Shown: one piece after another, positions 14,936 through 22,131 of the stretch | How the letters are laid out: every line of letters starts with the position of its first letter | Position numbering within the stretch: the first letter of the stretch is position 1 | Origin: Promethearchaeota archaeon | Lineage (GTDB): Archaea; Asgardarchaeota; Lokiarchaeia; Sigyniarchaeales; SOKP01 | Direction: 5' to 3' | Length of the DNA: 23,803 nt | Assembly (NCBI GenBank): GCA_018238625.1 | Contig: JABCSY010000061.1 | Span: 1-23,803, forward strand | Made by a program: the position numbers and the translations under genes | Notes under the pieces: model-generated | What the model saw: the letters and a program-made list of their open reading frames with translations, nothing else | Databases searched by the model: none | Told to the model about the DNA's origin: nothing

Positions 14936-16480
14936 TTGACAATAATGGACTCGAGCAAAAAGGATTTAGGAGCGGTCTTAACTCCTTCAGGGACTTCCGA
15001 TTTTATCGTATCTAAATTAGGTAAAATTAAAAGTAATCAAAAAGTTTTAGATCCGTGCGTAGGTCCCGGAGCTTTTGTTAAATCGTTATTGAAAGCTGGA
15101 ATTAAAAAAACACAGATTTCTGCTTATGACGTGAATCTTGCTTATAAAACAGATATTGAAGAATTAGGTGTATCCTTTAAAGCAGTAGATACATTAATAT
15201 CGTTTGATTCGGATTGCTATGACGAGTTCGATTTTATTGTTGGAAACCCTCCTTACTTAAATAAGGCAAGTAGTTACGTGAGAGAAAATAGGGTAAAGTT
15301 AAAAAAGATATATGGAAAAACCAACGCTCACGAAACTTATTCAATGTTTATAGTGAATAGTATATGGCGTTTGAAGGAGGGAGGAAAATTAGGTTTTATC
15401 ACGAGCGATACTTTCTTAACTTTAAGCACTCATAAAAAATTAAGAGAATTCATTCTTAATAATTGTATAATAAACGAAATATTACTCGCACCAACTAATT
15501 TATTTGATAAACAGAAAGTTAGCACATATCCAGCAATAATCATTTTAACTAAGTGTTCCGGAGATAGCAATAGGCAAGTTCGGAATAATAATTTAATGAG
15601 TATAATTTCGAGGATAAAAAATGAAGACGAATATTGGAAACCACAAGTTGTAAACGAAATCAAGCAGAGAAGATATAAATCTTTACCTTTTAGCATATTT
15701 TTTTTTGATGTAGAGGACCAAATAATTGATTTGTTTGAAAACGCTCCTAAACTAGATAATTTTATTAAAGGGTACATTGGAATGCACACTCATGACAATA
15801 AGAAATACATTGCTGCGATTGAAAGTACGGAACTAGCAGACATTTTCAGAAAGAAAAACAATACGAAAATTAAGCAAAATGAGAATTTCAAAATTGTTTT
15901 AAGAAGCGATTTAAAAACAGAGAAATGGAAACCTTATCTAAAAAGAGGTGGAGGAGATCAATACTATAGACCTATTATGGAAGCTTTAGAGTGGAACGAA
16001 AAAGCGATCTCTGTTTACGACATTCCAAGTACAGCGCCTTTTGAAAAAGAAGGAGTCGTTATTAGCGGTATTAGCTCAAAGTTAGCCGCCCGTTATATGC
16101 CAAAAGGTTGTTATTGGGACTCGAATAAAGCAATTGGTTTTATCGCTAAGGACAAATCGATTTCTATTGAATATTTCTTGGGACTATTGAATAGTTCTCT
16201 ATATAATTATCTGTCTAAAGGAATAATAAACAATACCAACAGCATTCAAATATCTGGGATTCATTCTTTGCCTTTTATTAAACCCAACAAAAAAACGCAA
16301 GAAGATATTGAAGTATTGGTTAAACAAATAATTGAAAATAAGAAAAAAAGCTTAGGTTACGACTATACGCGTGAACAGAAATCAATTGATGACATAATTT
16401 TTAATTTTTACGCTGTAAGATTTAATTTTTCATCAAAACTAAAAAAAAAATTAGAAGAAAATTACTCGATTTATAAATAA
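14936..16480 (+). CDS. N6-adenine DNA methyltransferase, gamma class (TaqI/Eco57I-like), with C-terminal target recognition domain; apparently orphan
   Basis: Motif X (GAVLTP), motif I (VLDPCVGPGAF), motif IV (IVGNPPY), LKEGGKLGFIT and a TaqI_C-like YFLGLLNSSL segment. No nuclease domain is evident. Confidence 0.85.
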   Translation: MTIMDSSKKDLGAVLTPSGTSDFIVSKLGKIKSNQKVLDPCVGPGAFVKSLLKAGIKKTQISAYDVNLAYKTDIEELGVSFKAVDTLISFDSDCYDEFDFIVGNPPYLNKASSYVRENRVKLKKIYGKTNAHETYSMFIVNSIWRLKEGGKLGFITSDTFLTLSTHKKLREFILNNCIINEILLAPTNLFDKQKVSTYPAIIILTKCSGDSNRQVRNNNLMSIISRIKNEDEYWKPQVVNEIKQRRYKSLPFSIFFFDVEDQIIDLFENAPKLDNFIKGYIGMHTHDNKKYIAAIESTELADIFRKKNNTKIKQNENFKIVLRSDLKTEKWKPYLKRGGGDQYYRPIMEALEWNEKAISVYDIPSTAPFEKEGVVISGISSKLAARYMPKGCYWDSNKAIGFIAKDKSISIEYFLGLLNSSLYNYLSKGIINNTNSIQISGIHSLPFIKPNKKTQEDIEVLVKQIIENKKKSLGYDYTREQKSIDDIIFNFYAVRFNFSSKLKKKLEENYSIYK

Positions 16481-20143: not shown

Positions 20144-21469
20144 GTGCCGTCTACTTTAGAAAAGATTCGAGTCTTGGGAGCAAATTCAAAATATGATATT
20201 TGTGCTAGTACCGCTTCCAGTCGCACCGAAAAATATCCAAAACTTTTTGGAGATTCAAAAAATTGGATTGGAGCTACGGCAAGTGCGGGAGTTTGCCACA
20301 GCTATACACCTGATGGTCGATGCGTGAGTCTTTTCAAAACTCTATACACTAATAAATGCATCTACAATTGCAAATATTGCTTTACTAATAGTTGTAAGCA
20401 CCGTATGAGTTTTACACCAGAGGAATACGCTCGCACATTTATGAAACTCTATTCGATGAACGTGGTGGAAGGAGTTTTCATTTCATCTGGAGTTTGTGGT
20501 AGCGCCGATGAAACAACCGAAGAAATGTTGGAAGTAGTTCGACTACTTCGTTTCAAATATAACTTTGGTGGATACGTGCATTTCAAGTGTTTACCAGGTG
20601 TGAGTAAGTATCTCCTTAAAGAGGCGATATCTCTATCTGATCGTATTTCAATTAATTCGGAAGCTTCCACTAAAGATCATTTGGCTGAAATCGCAGAACA
20701 GAAAGATTATTACAACGATATTATAACTCGCCAACGCTGGTTAAAGCAGATCCGTATCAGACATAATGAAGAAACTCTCAAAATCTTGAAAGATTTAAAA
20801 CAAGACAATCAATTGAGATACCAAGAAAACATGATTAAAGGTCGACGGGAAAATGGGTATAAAAAATTTCGATGGGATGGTGCTCCAATTCTCAATAGTG
20901 GACAGACCACGCAATTTGTAGTAGGGGCTGCAGAAAGTGAAAGCGATTACGACCTGCTTAAACGAATTGATTGGGGATACAAAGAAGTTGATTTGAGGCG
21001 TGCGTATTTTTCTTCGTTCATTCCAATTGAAGGTACACCGTTAGCAGGTAAACAAGCAGCTTCGTTAGCGAGAGAACATAGATTATATCAAAGCGATTGG
21101 TTATTACGAATCTATCATTATAAATTGAAAGATTTGAAAGAAGTATTGACCGATGATGGTAATTTACCCGAAGGAGATCCCAAAGTTCACTTAGCAAGAG
21201 AGTATTTTAAGGATCGTGGCCCAGTAGATCCAAACCAAGCGTCATACCAAGAATTACTCCGCGTTCCTGGAATTGGGCCAATTTCCGCTAAGCGGATAAT
21301 TAATTTGCGAGCTAAAAAATTTTCGTTTAAACGCAGGCAAGATCTTAAATCTGTTGGCGTGGTGTTAAAGCGAGCTGACCCGTACCTCTTGATAAACGGC
21401 CAGAAGCAAACTACTCTTTCTACTTTTATTGATCTTAATAGTAGCACAATTTTACAGAGTGAAATCTAA
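20144..21469 (+). CDS. Putative DNA modification/repair radical SAM protein with helix-hairpin-helix (TIGR03916-like); GTG start
   Basis: KYDICAS, GVCHSYTPDGRCVSLFK, CIYNCKYC (CxxxCxxC), GYVHFK, GQTTQFVVGA, REHRLYQSDWLLRIY and HhH motif LLRVPGIGPISAKRI. Confidence 0.9.
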   Translation: MPSTLEKIRVLGANSKYDICASTASSRTEKYPKLFGDSKNWIGATASAGVCHSYTPDGRCVSLFKTLYTNKCIYNCKYCFTNSCKHRMSFTPEEYARTFMKLYSMNVVEGVFISSGVCGSADETTEEMLEVVRLLRFKYNFGGYVHFKCLPGVSKYLLKEAISLSDRISINSEASTKDHLAEIAEQKDYYNDIITRQRWLKQIRIRHNEETLKILKDLKQDNQLRYQENMIKGRRENGYKKFRWDGAPILNSGQTTQFVVGAAESESDYDLLKRIDWGYKEVDLRRAYFSSFIPIEGTPLAGKQAASLAREHRLYQSDWLLRIYHYKLKDLKEVLTDDGNLPEGDPKVHLAREYFKDRGPVDPNQASYQELLRVPGIGPISAKRIINLRAKKFSFKRRQDLKSVGVVLKRADPYLLINGQKQTTLSTFIDLNSSTILQSEI

Positions 21470-22131
21470 TGAGAAAGAAAACAAATAGTCGGGATCCGTT
21501 AGAAGTTATTGGACGCGCAAAAGGATATTCACGCGAAGAATTGGTCCGTAATCTTCCACGCCATTCTGAGTTTTCTCCTGTTCTAATGCAACAAATCAAG
21601 AAGCTTCCAGAAGTAATTTTACGCAATTCAGGAACTCCAGTAGCAAAAAAAATTAACCGAATGATGCGAGAAGTGTCTACTGAAGCGTATCGTGCGAAGC
21701 AATTCGCTCGAACAGAAATAAATAATCGTGGTGTGCTATTCGGAGTTGTACAACTTAAGCATAGAGTGATTGATCTTATCTTAAATTATTTTCATAATAG
21801 GTGGCCACAATGTGTAATCTGTTTGTATAACGAACACACCCATAAAACTGGTGTAATAGACGAAAAAGGATTGATTCGTGAAATTAAATCTCCTTTGAAA
21901 AATGCTGTAGAAAAAATTAGTATTAATCGCCCCTTTATCCCATATTTTGATGATATTCAATTTTCTGGTGAAGAAATCTTCGAAACGCTATACAAATCAC
22001 AATTCATATCTGAACGAGAAAACCAACCTTACTTTAAAAGGATGATCCCGGACCATTGTTTTAAGTTACCAGGGATGAAAAATGGCGTAGAAAAGCGTTT
22101 TCGAAATAGGAACCTTAATGAATTTCTTTAG
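21469..22131 (+). CDS. DUF4130 / TIGR03915-like putative DNA metabolism protein, partner of the radical SAM enzyme
   Basis: TAATG stop/start overlap with the radical SAM gene. VSTEAYRAKQFAR, HRVIDLILNYFHNRW and FETLYKSQFISEREN...MIP resemble the DUF4130 pattern (VxrExHrmxxFvRF; HFxxR; WxxYxxsxxIxxRxN...MP). Confidence 0.75.
   Translation: MRKKTNSRDPLEVIGRAKGYSREELVRNLPRHSEFSPVLMQQIKKLPEVILRNSGTPVAKKINRMMREVSTEAYRAKQFARTEINNRGVLFGVVQLKHRVIDLILNYFHNRWPQCVICLYNEHTHKTGVIDEKGLIREIKSPLKNAVEKISINRPFIPYFDDIQFSGEEIFETLYKSQFISERENQPYFKRMIPDHCFKLPGMKNGVEKRFRNRNLNEFL

What the first reader, a model, noticed from the sequence alone, without database searches (positions are those of the whole stretch)
21407..21430. 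Canonical-type PCNA-interacting PIP box (QTTLSTFI) in the radical SAM tail
Seen: the C-terminal tail after the HhH reads KQTTLSTFID, fitting Q-x-x-L-x-x-F-(F/hydrophobic). Known: this is the archaeal/eukaryotic PCNA-binding motif, found as QxTLxxFF/WF in tails of archaeal FEN1, PolB and RNase HII. From recall (needs checking), bacterial homologs of this family often end in a QLxLF beta-clamp motif. Inference: the clamp-binding motif was swapped to match the host clamp, which would place the enzyme's activity on DNA at the replication or repair machinery.
Basis: partly seen in the sequence, partly recalled or inferred. Interest (0 to 1): 0.75.

Follow-up and report, generated by a model that had tools for sequence, protein, structure and literature searches.

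The report
PCNA-docking tail on archaeal radical-SAM enzyme
An uncharacterised DNA-repair-type radical SAM enzyme of an Asgard archaeon ends in a short peptide that looks and models like the standard handle for the archaeal sliding clamp PCNA, while its bacterial relatives carry the bacterial clamp handle instead, which points to an enzyme that works on DNA while tethered to the clamp.

Summary
Bases 21407-21430 encode QTTLSTFI, residues 422-429 of a 441-aa radical SAM + helix-hairpin-helix protein (20144..21469, +). The protein is TIGR03916-like and is translationally coupled to a DUF4130 gene. The genome is archaeal (Asgard): PCNA is present and no beta clamp was found.

One regex match alone is near chance (18 C-terminal hits in 3546 ORFs against 12.5 in shuffles). 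Conservation makes the case:
- Q, the aliphatic residue and the aromatic residue are kept in 120 of 120 nearest homologs, while positions 5 and 6 vary.
- Many homologs end at the motif.

The motif type follows the host's clamp:
- A beta-clamp motif of the QLxLF type occurs in 75 of 88 bacterial tails and 0 of 68 archaeal tails.
- Q..[LIMV]..[FYW] next to the HhH occurs in 31 of 68 archaeal tails and 0 of 88 bacterial tails.

A predicted complex with the genome's own PCNA scored 0.74 (best control 0.00). The contacts lie on residues 417-429.

New here: the DUF4130 partner also ends in a PIP-like core (NLNEFL) in archaea only.

Caveats:
- Methanobacteriota homologs carry a truncated form (YQSTLEF or YQTTL).
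- Only about two independent domain contrasts exist.
- Nothing has been tested experimentally.

Verdict: a probable genuine PIP box, and a new client of a known kind of motif.

The parts
20144..21469 (+). [quoted passage not shown]
   Evidence: ORF. (TIGR03916, 338.5 bits, cut-off 343.5, profile positions 3-383 of 415). (Radical_SAM residues 68-206; HHH_3 residues 360-404). (AF2 mean pLDDT 86.3).
20357..20380 (+). CxxxCxxC iron-sulfur cluster motif (C72, C76, C79)
   Evidence: All three are invariant columns in alignments A1, A2 and A4.
21221..21355 (+). Helix-hairpin-helix DNA-binding domain (residues 360-404)
   Evidence: PF12836, E 6e-12. pLDDT is above 90 up to residue 420.
21407..21430 (+). 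PIP-box-like motif QTTLSTFI (residues 422-429), the finding
   Evidence: sequence. (Q, aliphatic and aromatic positions kept in 120/120). (pLDDT 68 in block 421-430, short helix 425-428). (predicted PCNA contacts on residues 417-426 and 428-429).
21431..21466 (+). Distal tail DLNSSTILQSEI (residues 430-441). It is disordered in the model and absent from many homologs. Its end, I-[LS]-Q-x-[EG]-I, is moderately conserved and unexplained.
   Evidence: pLDDT below 40 from residue 431. (present in only 91-106 of 120)..
21469..22131 (+). DUF4130 / TIGR03915-like partner gene, 220 aa. Its start codon overlaps the stop of the radical SAM gene (TAATG).
   Evidence: (TIGR03915, 44.1 bits, below the 112.25 cut-off). 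(PF13566, 52.9 bits, cut-off 27). (AF2 mean pLDDT 82).
22105..22128 (+). C-terminal PIP-like core of the DUF4130 partner, NRNLNEFL (residues 213-220). There is no Gln at position 1.
   Evidence: tails. ([LIM][DNE]x[FYW]h in the last 25 aa in 30 of 32 Asgard neighbours and 0 of 64 bacterial ones). ('TLDxF' is among the best-kept columns of an alignment with 18-30% identity). (tail pLDDT 53-54, helix 216-219).

Best explanation
Residues 422-429 (QTTLSTFI) are a functional PIP box. This is a short linear motif at the junction between the HhH domain and a disordered C-terminal tail. It tethers the radical SAM enzyme to the archaeal sliding clamp PCNA.

Proposed binding mode, following the classical PIP-PCNA mode (established knowledge):
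- The backbone of K421-T424 pairs as a strand with the C-terminal strand of PCNA.
- L425, F428 and I429, on a one-turn helix, plug the hydrophobic pocket under the interdomain connecting loop.
- The HhH domain next to the motif holds the DNA.

The enzyme works with the co-translated DUF4130 protein. In archaea that protein carries a PIP-like tail of its own (NLNEFL), so the pair could occupy two protomers of one PCNA ring.

Bacterial relatives do the equivalent with a QLxLF-type beta-clamp motif. In several bacteria they belong to the LexA/SOS regulon. The system is therefore best read as a clamp-tethered DNA lesion-repair or DNA-modification activity.

Shown:
- the sequence, its conservation pattern and its partition by host clamp;
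- disorder of the tail in the model;
- a predicted interface that passes its controls.

Inferred:
- actual binding;
- the two-protomer arrangement;
- the substrate and chemistry, which remain unknown.
For: (a) Host clamp.
- The genome has PCNA (267-aa ORF).
- No beta clamp was found (completeness 97.9%).

(b) The conservation pattern is that of a PIP box.
- Positions 1, 4 and 7 are kept in 120/120 and position 3 (Thr) in 114/120.
- Positions 5 and 6 vary freely, and tail length varies.
- About 20 of the 120 homologs end at or within two residues of the motif.

(c) It matches the local PIP consensus.
- I put 10 of the 18 strict C-terminal regex hits in this genome through Pfam.
- Five belong to families known to bind PCNA (that they bind PCNA is my knowledge, from no call): PolD DP2 (KQQQLSNFF), PolB (NQKDLSCYIE), Nre (NQRTIDNFL), a Y-family polymerase (TQTTLINYLEV) and FEN1 (KKQVSLDNFFK).

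(d) Partition by host clamp.
- QLxLF-type motif: 75 of 88 bacterial tails, 0 of 68 archaeal tails.
- Q..[LIMV]..[FYW] within 14 residues of the HhH end: 31 of 68 archaeal tails, 0 of 88 bacterial tails.
- Three named DPANN representatives end KTQASLKRWF, SRQFPLSEFA and IQQTTLTTYA.

(e) The motif follows the host, not the gene tree.
- Four bacterial sequences (L038, L039, L041, L159) group at 98% local support inside the clade that holds all archaeal rows.
- Three of them end QLPLW, QPALF and QLSLW; the fourth (L041) matches neither pattern.
- Their genomes have a beta clamp and, where tested, no PCNA_N.

(f) Predicted complex of PCNA with residues 396-441.
- ipSAE 0.74, best of 3 controls 0.00.
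- The mark was reached by 58 of 80 solved complexes and 2 of 110 mismatched pairs.
- The runs agree in at least 65% of their contacts. Partner pLDDT is at least 42.
- Interface on the partner: residues 417-426 and 428-429.
- Interface on PCNA: residues 41, 44-48, 127-135, 232, 248 and 250-255.
- From my knowledge of solved PIP-PCNA complexes, that is the pocket, the interdomain loop and the C-terminal strand.

(g) AF2 model.
- pLDDT 92 for residues 411-420, 68 for 421-430 and below 40 after that.
- A one-turn helix spans 425-428.

(h) The DUF4130 partner has an archaea-specific C-terminal [LI]-[DN]-x-[FY]-h core.

(i) Context from papers, passages read.
- The bacterial COG1573-COG4277 operon is predicted to be LexA-regulated (PMC8565304).
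- DUF4130 is linked with radical SAM and UDG genes in SOS neighbourhoods (PMC3765255).
- An AF3 model of a bacterial DUF4130-radical SAM pair has been published (bioRxiv 10.64898/2026.08.19.745780).
Against: - A single regex match is close to chance (18 found against 12.5 in shuffles).
- Position 8 is Ile here and Thr in 36 of 120 homologs, not aromatic.
- Methanobacteriota: 148 of 151 genomes carry a family member. In the 30 loci read, 29 end in a truncated form (YQSTLEF, YQTTL).
- FEN1 in all 5 Methanobacteriota genomes checked ends in a full Q.SL..WF. The Q-x-T-L core is therefore kept even where a proper PIP box is not, so it may have a structural role of its own.
- Some bacterial members have Q-G-x-[ILF]-x-x-[LI] at the same position, upstream of their QLxLF motif.
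- 5 of 30 Asgard loci have degenerate versions.
- Only 2 domain changes on the tree, 1 on well-supported branches, underlie the partition. No independent-contrast test can reach significance.
- The tree is a FastTree tree with long branches.
- PIP-PCNA complexes are well represented among solved structures, so the pass may reflect likeness to them. The partner's own fold had pLDDT under 50.
- There are no expression or binding data.
Confidence: 0.72

Rival explanations
1. The conserved Q-x-T-L-x-x-F element is mainly a structural or partner-docking segment. It might cap the HhH domain, dock the DUF4130 subunit, or fold back onto the active site. On this reading its likeness to a PIP box is incidental.
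For: - The Q-x-T-L core survives in Methanobacteriota without the aromatic pair, although their FEN1 keeps a full PIP box.
- The four Methanobacteriota genomes tested lack DUF4130. Loss of the aromatic end therefore coincides with loss of the partner.
- Some bacterial members keep Q-G-x-[ILF]-x-x-[LI] at the same position.
- The motif abuts the folded domain and has intermediate confidence (pLDDT 68), so it is not clearly disordered.
Against: - Bacterial proteins that do have a DUF4130 partner lack an aromatic motif at this position (0 of 88). They carry a beta-clamp motif instead.
- Positions 5 and 6 vary freely and many proteins end right after the motif. That pattern is typical of a linear motif and not of a packed segment.
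- The DUF4130 protein has its own archaea-specific PIP-like tail.
- The motif matches those of five PCNA-client families in the same genome.
- The PCNA model passes its controls.
- This rival was not tested directly.
Confidence: 0.17
2. The motif is a genuine protein-docking peptide, but it reads a host factor other than PCNA. In that case the bacterial QLxLF-like tails are also not clamp motifs.
For: No call supports a specific alternative partner. It is kept only because binding was not measured and because short hydrophobic motifs are promiscuous (general knowledge).
Against: - Both motif types match the consensus for the clamp of their own domain of life, and they swap with the host clamp.
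- The predicted interface is the classical PIP site.
Confidence: 0.06
3. Chance resemblance in a tail under no selection.
For: The regex occurs at close to the shuffled rate across the genome (18 against 12.5).
Against: - The three key positions are kept in 120/120 while the neighbouring positions vary.
- The motif is conserved across Asgard families and DPANN members at 40-50% overall identity.
Confidence: 0.03

Closest known systems
C-terminal PIP boxes of archaeal replication and repair proteins (FEN1, PolB, PolD DP2, Y-family polymerase, NreA)
   Same: - It has Q-x-x-[LI]-x-x-[FY]-h near the extreme C-terminus, after the last folded domain.
- The same pattern is seen in this genome's FEN1, PolB, PolD DP2, Y-family polymerase and Nre.
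- The predicted contacts are at the PCNA pocket, the interdomain loop and the C-terminal strand.
   Different: - The carrier is a radical SAM enzyme of unknown chemistry.
- I found no such enzyme described as a PCNA client: searches, listings only.
- Position 8 is Ile or Thr in most close homologs.
- Twelve further residues follow the motif here.
[quoted passage not shown]
   Same: - It has the same radical SAM + HhH architecture and CxxxCxxC motif.
- It has the same adjacent DUF4130 gene.
- The bacterial operon is predicted to be SOS-regulated (PMC8565304, passages).
- DUF4130 and the radical SAM protein are predicted to form a complex (bioRxiv 10.64898/2026.08.19.745780, passages).
   Different: - It scores 5 bits under the NCBIfam cut-off.
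- It carries a Loki-specific helical insert at about residues 205-250.
- Its tail has a PIP-like motif instead of QLxLF.
- No UDG gene or UDG fusion lies in the window.
- The DUF4130 partner has an extra PIP-like tail.
Spore photoproduct lyase SplB (COG1533), the characterised DNA-repair radical SAM enzyme
   Same: It is a radical SAM enzyme associated with DNA repair. The family was called 'SplB-like' in PMC3765255 (passages read).
   Different: - No SPL entry appears among the listed Foldseek matches.
- The best solved matches are generic radical SAM barrels: HydE, LIAS, BioB and viperin, at TM 0.36-0.40 on the query.
- PMC8565304 treats COG1533 and COG4277 as separate systems.
- The substrate here is unknown.
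Bacterial beta-clamp-binding motifs (QL[SD]LF type)
   Same: It would serve the same function, a C-terminal clamp handle on a DNA enzyme. That motif is present in the bacterial orthologs.
   Different: This protein has none, and 0 of 68 archaeal tails have one. The host has no beta clamp.

Membership tests
Canonical PIP box (Q-x-x-[LIM]-x-x-[FYW]-[FYW]) | Gln at position 1 | tested here: met
   Q422. Kept in 120/120 nearest homologs.
Canonical PIP box (Q-x-x-[LIM]-x-x-[FYW]-[FYW]) | Aliphatic residue at position 4 | tested here: met
   L425. L107, I12, M1 of 120.
Canonical PIP box (Q-x-x-[LIM]-x-x-[FYW]-[FYW]) | Aromatic residue at position 7 | tested here: met
   F428. F104, Y16 of 120.
Canonical PIP box (Q-x-x-[LIM]-x-x-[FYW]-[FYW]) | Aromatic residue at position 8 | tested here: not met
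   I429. The commonest residues at this position are I36, T36, F29 and V7 of 119. The same genome's PolB, Nre and Y-family polymerase also have I or L here, so the local consensus is looser than the eukaryotic one.
Canonical PIP box (Q-x-x-[LIM]-x-x-[FYW]-[FYW]) | Lies in an exposed, flexible terminal segment | tested here: met
   AF2 pLDDT is 92 (residues 411-420), 68 (421-430) and below 40 (431-441). Many homologs end at the motif.
Canonical PIP box (Q-x-x-[LIM]-x-x-[FYW]-[FYW]) | Host encodes PCNA | tested here: met
   PCNA_N, 77.8 bits, in G000:C131.
Canonical PIP box (Q-x-x-[LIM]-x-x-[FYW]-[FYW]) | Physically binds PCNA through the motif | not testable with these tools
   Only a prediction is available: ipSAE 0.74 against a best control of 0.00. 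The mark was reached by 58 of 80 solved complexes and 2 of 110 mismatched pairs. The pass may reflect likeness to solved PIP-PCNA complexes.
NCBIfam TIGR03916 (rSAM_link_UDG) | Score at or above the curated cut-off (343.5 bits) | tested here: not met
   338.5 bits, E 6e-101, profile positions 3-383 of 415. The last 32 profile positions, the bacterial tail, are unmatched. Shorter Asgard members score 345-400 bits.
NCBIfam TIGR03916 (rSAM_link_UDG) | Radical SAM CxxxCxxC motif plus a C-terminal HhH domain | tested here: met
   C72, C76 and C79 are invariant. HHH_3 covers residues 360-404.
NCBIfam TIGR03916 (rSAM_link_UDG) | Adjacent TIGR03915 / DUF4130 gene | tested here: met
   The overlapping downstream ORF matches PF13566 at 52.9 bits, above its cut-off of 27. 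It matches TIGR03915 at only 44.1 bits against a cut-off of 112.25.
NCBIfam TIGR03916 (rSAM_link_UDG) | Linked uracil-DNA glycosylase family gene | tested here: not met
   No UDG domain was found in any ORF of the window that I scanned. The rest of the genome was not searched for one.
Bacterial beta-clamp-binding motif (QLxLF type) | Q[LMI]x[LMIF][FWL] or Q[LM]xLx[FL] in the C-terminal tail | tested here: not met
   Absent here and in 0 of 68 archaeal tails. Present in 75 of 88 bacterial tails.

The most novel reading that the evidence does not exclude
The radical SAM-DUF4130 pair is a clamp-riding, two-subunit DNA lesion-processing machine that both domains of life share.
- In archaea both subunits carry their own PIP-type tails. 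The heterodimer would then sit on two protomers of one PCNA ring as a 'tool-belt' beside a polymerase. It would use radical chemistry on a lesion or base met at the replication fork or at a translesion-synthesis patch.
- The clamp handle has been rewritten each time the gene crossed between domains. In some bacteria a decayed PIP-like relic (Q-G-x-I-x-x-I) remains upstream of a newly acquired QLxLF.
Probability: 0.3. Interest if true: 0.72.

Novelty: new member of a known kind. Interest (0 to 1): 0.52.

Why it matters
The TIGR03916/COG4277-DUF4130(-UDG) system is widespread:
- 59 of 201 Asgard genomes sampled carry it.
- 148 of 151 Methanobacteriota genomes sampled carry it.
- Many bacterial phyla carry it.

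In bacteria it is predicted to be SOS-regulated (PMC8565304). Its substrate and chemistry are unknown.

A clamp handle that switches between PIP and QLxLF with the host clamp is a strong functional clue that needs no assay. It places the enzyme on DNA, at sites where a clamp is loaded.

It also gives a simple entry point for biochemistry. PCNA or the beta clamp could be used as a bait, or as a stimulatory cofactor.

Finally, it is a clean natural example of a short linear motif being rewritten after transfer between domains.

Tried and rejected
A 12-sequence alignment, A2, worked.
- A first motif count dropped proteins with long tails because of my own filter. I replaced it with an alignment-anchored count. 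Only the counts are used.
- L054 is titled Methanomethylophilaceae and looked like an archaeon carrying a bacterial-type gene, which would have been a natural experiment. I rejected it. Its genome (G201) has a beta clamp and no PCNA_N match. The locus is a 2-kb contig that is open at its end. The 'phylum of G201' sample is therefore counted as bacterial: 5 of 5 genomes tested have a beta clamp.
- The independent-contrast test of domain against motif has no power, with 2 domain changes and p = 1.
- Foldseek against the PDB gave only generic radical SAM folds and no clue to the substrate.
- The first FEN1 tail script printed nothing because its pattern was wrong. It was redone.
- Literature searches:
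  - 'TIGR03916': 0 papers.
  - 'clamp-binding motif' with 'radical SAM': 0 papers.
  - 'radical SAM', PCNA, PIP, archaea: 10 papers held all four terms (9 listed). None was on this family, judged from title and abstract only.
  - Supplementary files were not consulted.
- The rival 'the tail docks DUF4130' could not be modelled.
Full report
**What is there**

The window is contig C191 of a 4.29-Mb archaeal genome (completeness 97.9%, contamination 7.6%). It encodes a PCNA (267-aa ORF), and no beta clamp was found. The nearest homologs of the gene in question that carry a name come from Promethearchaeota/Loki-, Thor-, Hod-, Hermod-, Odin- and Heimdall-type Asgard bins.

ORF 20144..21469 (+) encodes a 441-aa protein with three parts:
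- a radical SAM core (Pfam residues 68-206; C72, C76 and C79 invariant);
- an HhH domain (residues 360-404);
- a short tail.

It matches NCBIfam TIGR03916 at 338.5 bits, 5 bits under the cut-off, over profile positions 3-383 of 415.

Its stop overlaps the start (TAATG) of a 220-aa DUF4130/TIGR03915-like ORF at 21469..22131. The rest of the window holds metabolic and transport genes, archaeal lipid genes and an unlinked N6 DNA methyltransferase. There are no other repair genes.

**The observation**

Bases 21407-21430 encode QTTLSTFI, residues 422-429, exactly as stated.

One match means little on its own. The strict C-terminal pattern hits 18 of 3546 ORFs in this genome, against 12.5 in shuffled tails. 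Conservation carries the weight. In the 120 nearest homologs:
- Q422 is kept in 120/120;
- T424 is kept in 114/120;
- position 425 is L/I/M in 120/120;
- position 428 is F/Y in 120/120;
- positions 426-427 vary freely;
- what follows residue 429 is variable or absent.

Several forms stop right at the motif, for example ...QTTLQNFT.

More distant Asgard families also keep the pattern, for example QTRIDNYV, QTRIREFFQ and QLTLDNF. By the regex, 25 of 30 Asgard loci keep it and 5 are degenerate. Those 30 loci are the best-scoring ones from the 59 genomes with a match among 201 searched.

**Does it look like this organism's PIP boxes?**

I put 10 of the 18 regex hits through Pfam. Five are families known to bind PCNA (that they bind PCNA is my knowledge, from no call):
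- PolD DP2 (KQQQLSNFF);
- PolB (NQKDLSCYIE);
- Nre (NQRTIDNFL);
- a Y-family polymerase (TQTTLINYLEV);
- FEN1 (KKQVSLDNFFK).

The radical SAM tail KQTTLSTFI fits this local consensus. The consensus tolerates I or L at position 8.

**Partition by clamp**

Representatives from a library of 1.8 billion proteins fall into two tail classes:
- a Q..L..[FWY] motif directly after the HhH domain;
- a QLSLF, QLELF or QLTLF-type motif after a spacer.

With sequences of known host, anchored by alignment, the counts are:

| Set | n | PIP-like motif at the HhH end | Beta-clamp motif |
|---|---|---|---|
| Asgard | 30 | 25 | 0 |
| Methanobacteriota | 30 | 1 | 0 |
| Other named archaea | 8 | 5 | 0 |
| Named bacteria | 71 | 0 | 60 |
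| A second beta-clamp-bearing phylum | 17 | 0 | 15 |

- Six bacterial tails match the PIP regex only further down the tail, not next to the HhH. In the ones I inspected the match overlaps the clamp motif, as in QKQLSIF.
- Three named DPANN representatives also end in PIP-like tails.
- One record titled as an archaeon (L054) is really from a genome with a beta clamp and no PCNA_N. I counted it out.

**Gene tree**

A FastTree tree was built from 151 cores with the tails removed. Two fragments were dropped, and the tree has long branches, so it needs care. It separates a large bacterial clade from a clade that holds all 52 archaeal rows.

Four bacterial sequences sit inside that second clade as a group at 98% local support. 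Three of them end QLPLW, QPALF and QLSLW; the fourth (L041) matches neither pattern. Their genomes have a beta clamp and, where tested, no PCNA. So the tail follows the host clamp and not the gene's ancestry.

That still amounts to only two domain changes, one on supported branches. No contrast test can reach significance.

**Structure**

AF2 on a 97-row alignment gives mean pLDDT 86.3. The fold is confident up to residue 420. The 421-430 block scores 68, with a one-turn helix at 425-428. Residues 431-441 score below 40.

The complex test used PCNA (30-row alignment) and residues 396-441:
- It scored ipSAE 0.74, against a best control of 0.00.
- The mark was reached by 58 of 80 solved complexes and 2 of 110 mismatched pairs.
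- The runs agree in at least 65% of their contacts, and partner pLDDT is at least 42.
- The interface uses residues 417-426 and 428-429 of the tail.
- On PCNA it uses residues 41, 44-48, 127-135, 232, 248 and 250-255.

From my knowledge of solved complexes, that is the classical PIP site. Many PIP-PCNA structures exist, so the pass may reflect likeness to them. It supports binding and does not show it.

Foldseek finds only generic radical SAM barrels (HydE, LIAS, BioB, viperin; TM 0.36-0.40), so the chemistry stays open.

**An addition: the partner has its own handle**

The DUF4130 protein ends NRNLNEFL.
- Among Asgard neighbours, 30 of 32 carry [LIM][DNE]x[FYW]h in the last 25 residues. The other two carry KLDSFL a little further in.
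- Among bacterial DUF4130 neighbours, 0 of 64 carry it.
- In an alignment at 18-30% identity, 'TLDxF' is among the best-kept columns.
- The tail is low-confidence, with a short helix at 216-219.

This is a PIP core without the Gln. Whether it binds PCNA was not modelled.

**What speaks against**

Methanobacteriota nearly all have a family member (148 of 151 genomes). Those family members differ from the Asgard form:
- In the 30 loci read, 29 end YQSTLEF, YQTTL or similar.
- FEN1 in all 5 genomes checked ends in a full Q.SL..WF.
- All 4 genomes tested lack DUF4130.

So the Q-x-T-L core can persist without a complete PIP box. It may cap the HhH domain or serve another contact.

A few bacterial members keep Q-G-x-[ILF]-x-x-[LI] at the same spot, upstream of their QLxLF motif. 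That could be an ancestral structural element or a decayed PIP.

These points keep a structural or partner-docking reading alive at about 0.17.

**What is known**

- PMC3765255 (passages) links DUF4130 with 'SplB-like' radical SAM and UDG genes in SOS neighbourhoods.
- PMC8565304 (passages) predicts LexA control of a COG1573-COG4277 operon in Bacteroidetes, and cites the same for Verrucomicrobia and Alphaproteobacteria.
- A 2026 preprint (10.64898/2026.08.19.745780, passages) models a bacterial DUF4130-radical SAM complex and proposes nucleic-acid modification.

None of the passages I read mentions a clamp motif. My searches for one found nothing. Supplements were not seen.

**Verdict**

The motif is most likely a working PIP box (0.72). 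It would make this radical SAM enzyme, and probably its DUF4130 partner, a new PCNA client. The bacterial orthologs are matching beta-clamp clients. As a kind of feature it is ordinary. As a clue to an uncharacterised and widespread repair or modification system, it is useful.

Noticed in passing
L112-L141 (Methanobacteriota loci), L203-L207: 148 of 151 sampled Methanobacteriota genomes carry a TIGR03916-like gene. In the 30 loci read it ends YQSTLEF or YQTTL. Their FEN1 ends in a full Q.SL..WF, and 4 of 4 genomes tested lack DUF4130. This may be a stand-alone subfamily with a truncated tail.
   Followed up: partly
L054 / L148 (genome G201): The record title names a Methanomethylophilaceae archaeon. 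The genome has a beta clamp and no PCNA_N match, and its relatives by phylum have beta clamps. The title appears to be wrong, or the bin is bacterial.
   Followed up: yes
L036, P0129, P0146, P0183: These bacterial-type members have Q-G-x-[ILF]-x-x-[LI] exactly where archaea have the PIP-like motif, followed by a spacer and QLELF or QLSLF. This may be a relic of a PIP box, or an ancestral structural element.
   Followed up: no
window 21449-21466 (residues 436-441): Long Loki-type forms keep a second terminal element, I-[LS]-Q-x-[EG]-I. Many Firmicutes-type proteins end [ST]-G-[EQ]-[LIM] after their clamp motif. This extreme C-terminal mini-motif is unexplained.
   Followed up: no
window about 20756-20893 (residues about 205-250): A largely helical insert (helices 189-217 and 221-232 in the model) is present in the Loki-family proteins and absent from most other members. 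It accounts for the 440-aa length against about 385-398 aa in the shorter forms.
   Followed up: no
G000:C22:228-1694 (L163): A 489-aa DUF72 protein with a 220-aa N-terminal extension ends GQTGLDKFLN. It is another candidate PCNA client.
   Followed up: no
G000:C147:8722-9393 (L171): A 224-aa ORF ends TQRNLSEFLKDLEN and has no Pfam match at E 1e-5. It touches the end of its contig.
   Followed up: no
G000:C171:1-423: A second, partial PCNA-like frame (68% identity to the main one) lies at a contig edge. It could be a paralog, a strain variant or contamination (the genome's contamination is 7.6%).
   Followed up: no
window 14936-16480 (+): An Eco57I/N6_Mtase/TaqI_C-type DNA methyltransferase has no restriction partner among the scanned neighbours.
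   Followed up: no
window 20210-20287 (residues 23-48): The N-terminal segment before the radical SAM core has pLDDT below 50. It varies in length across the family.
   Followed up: no
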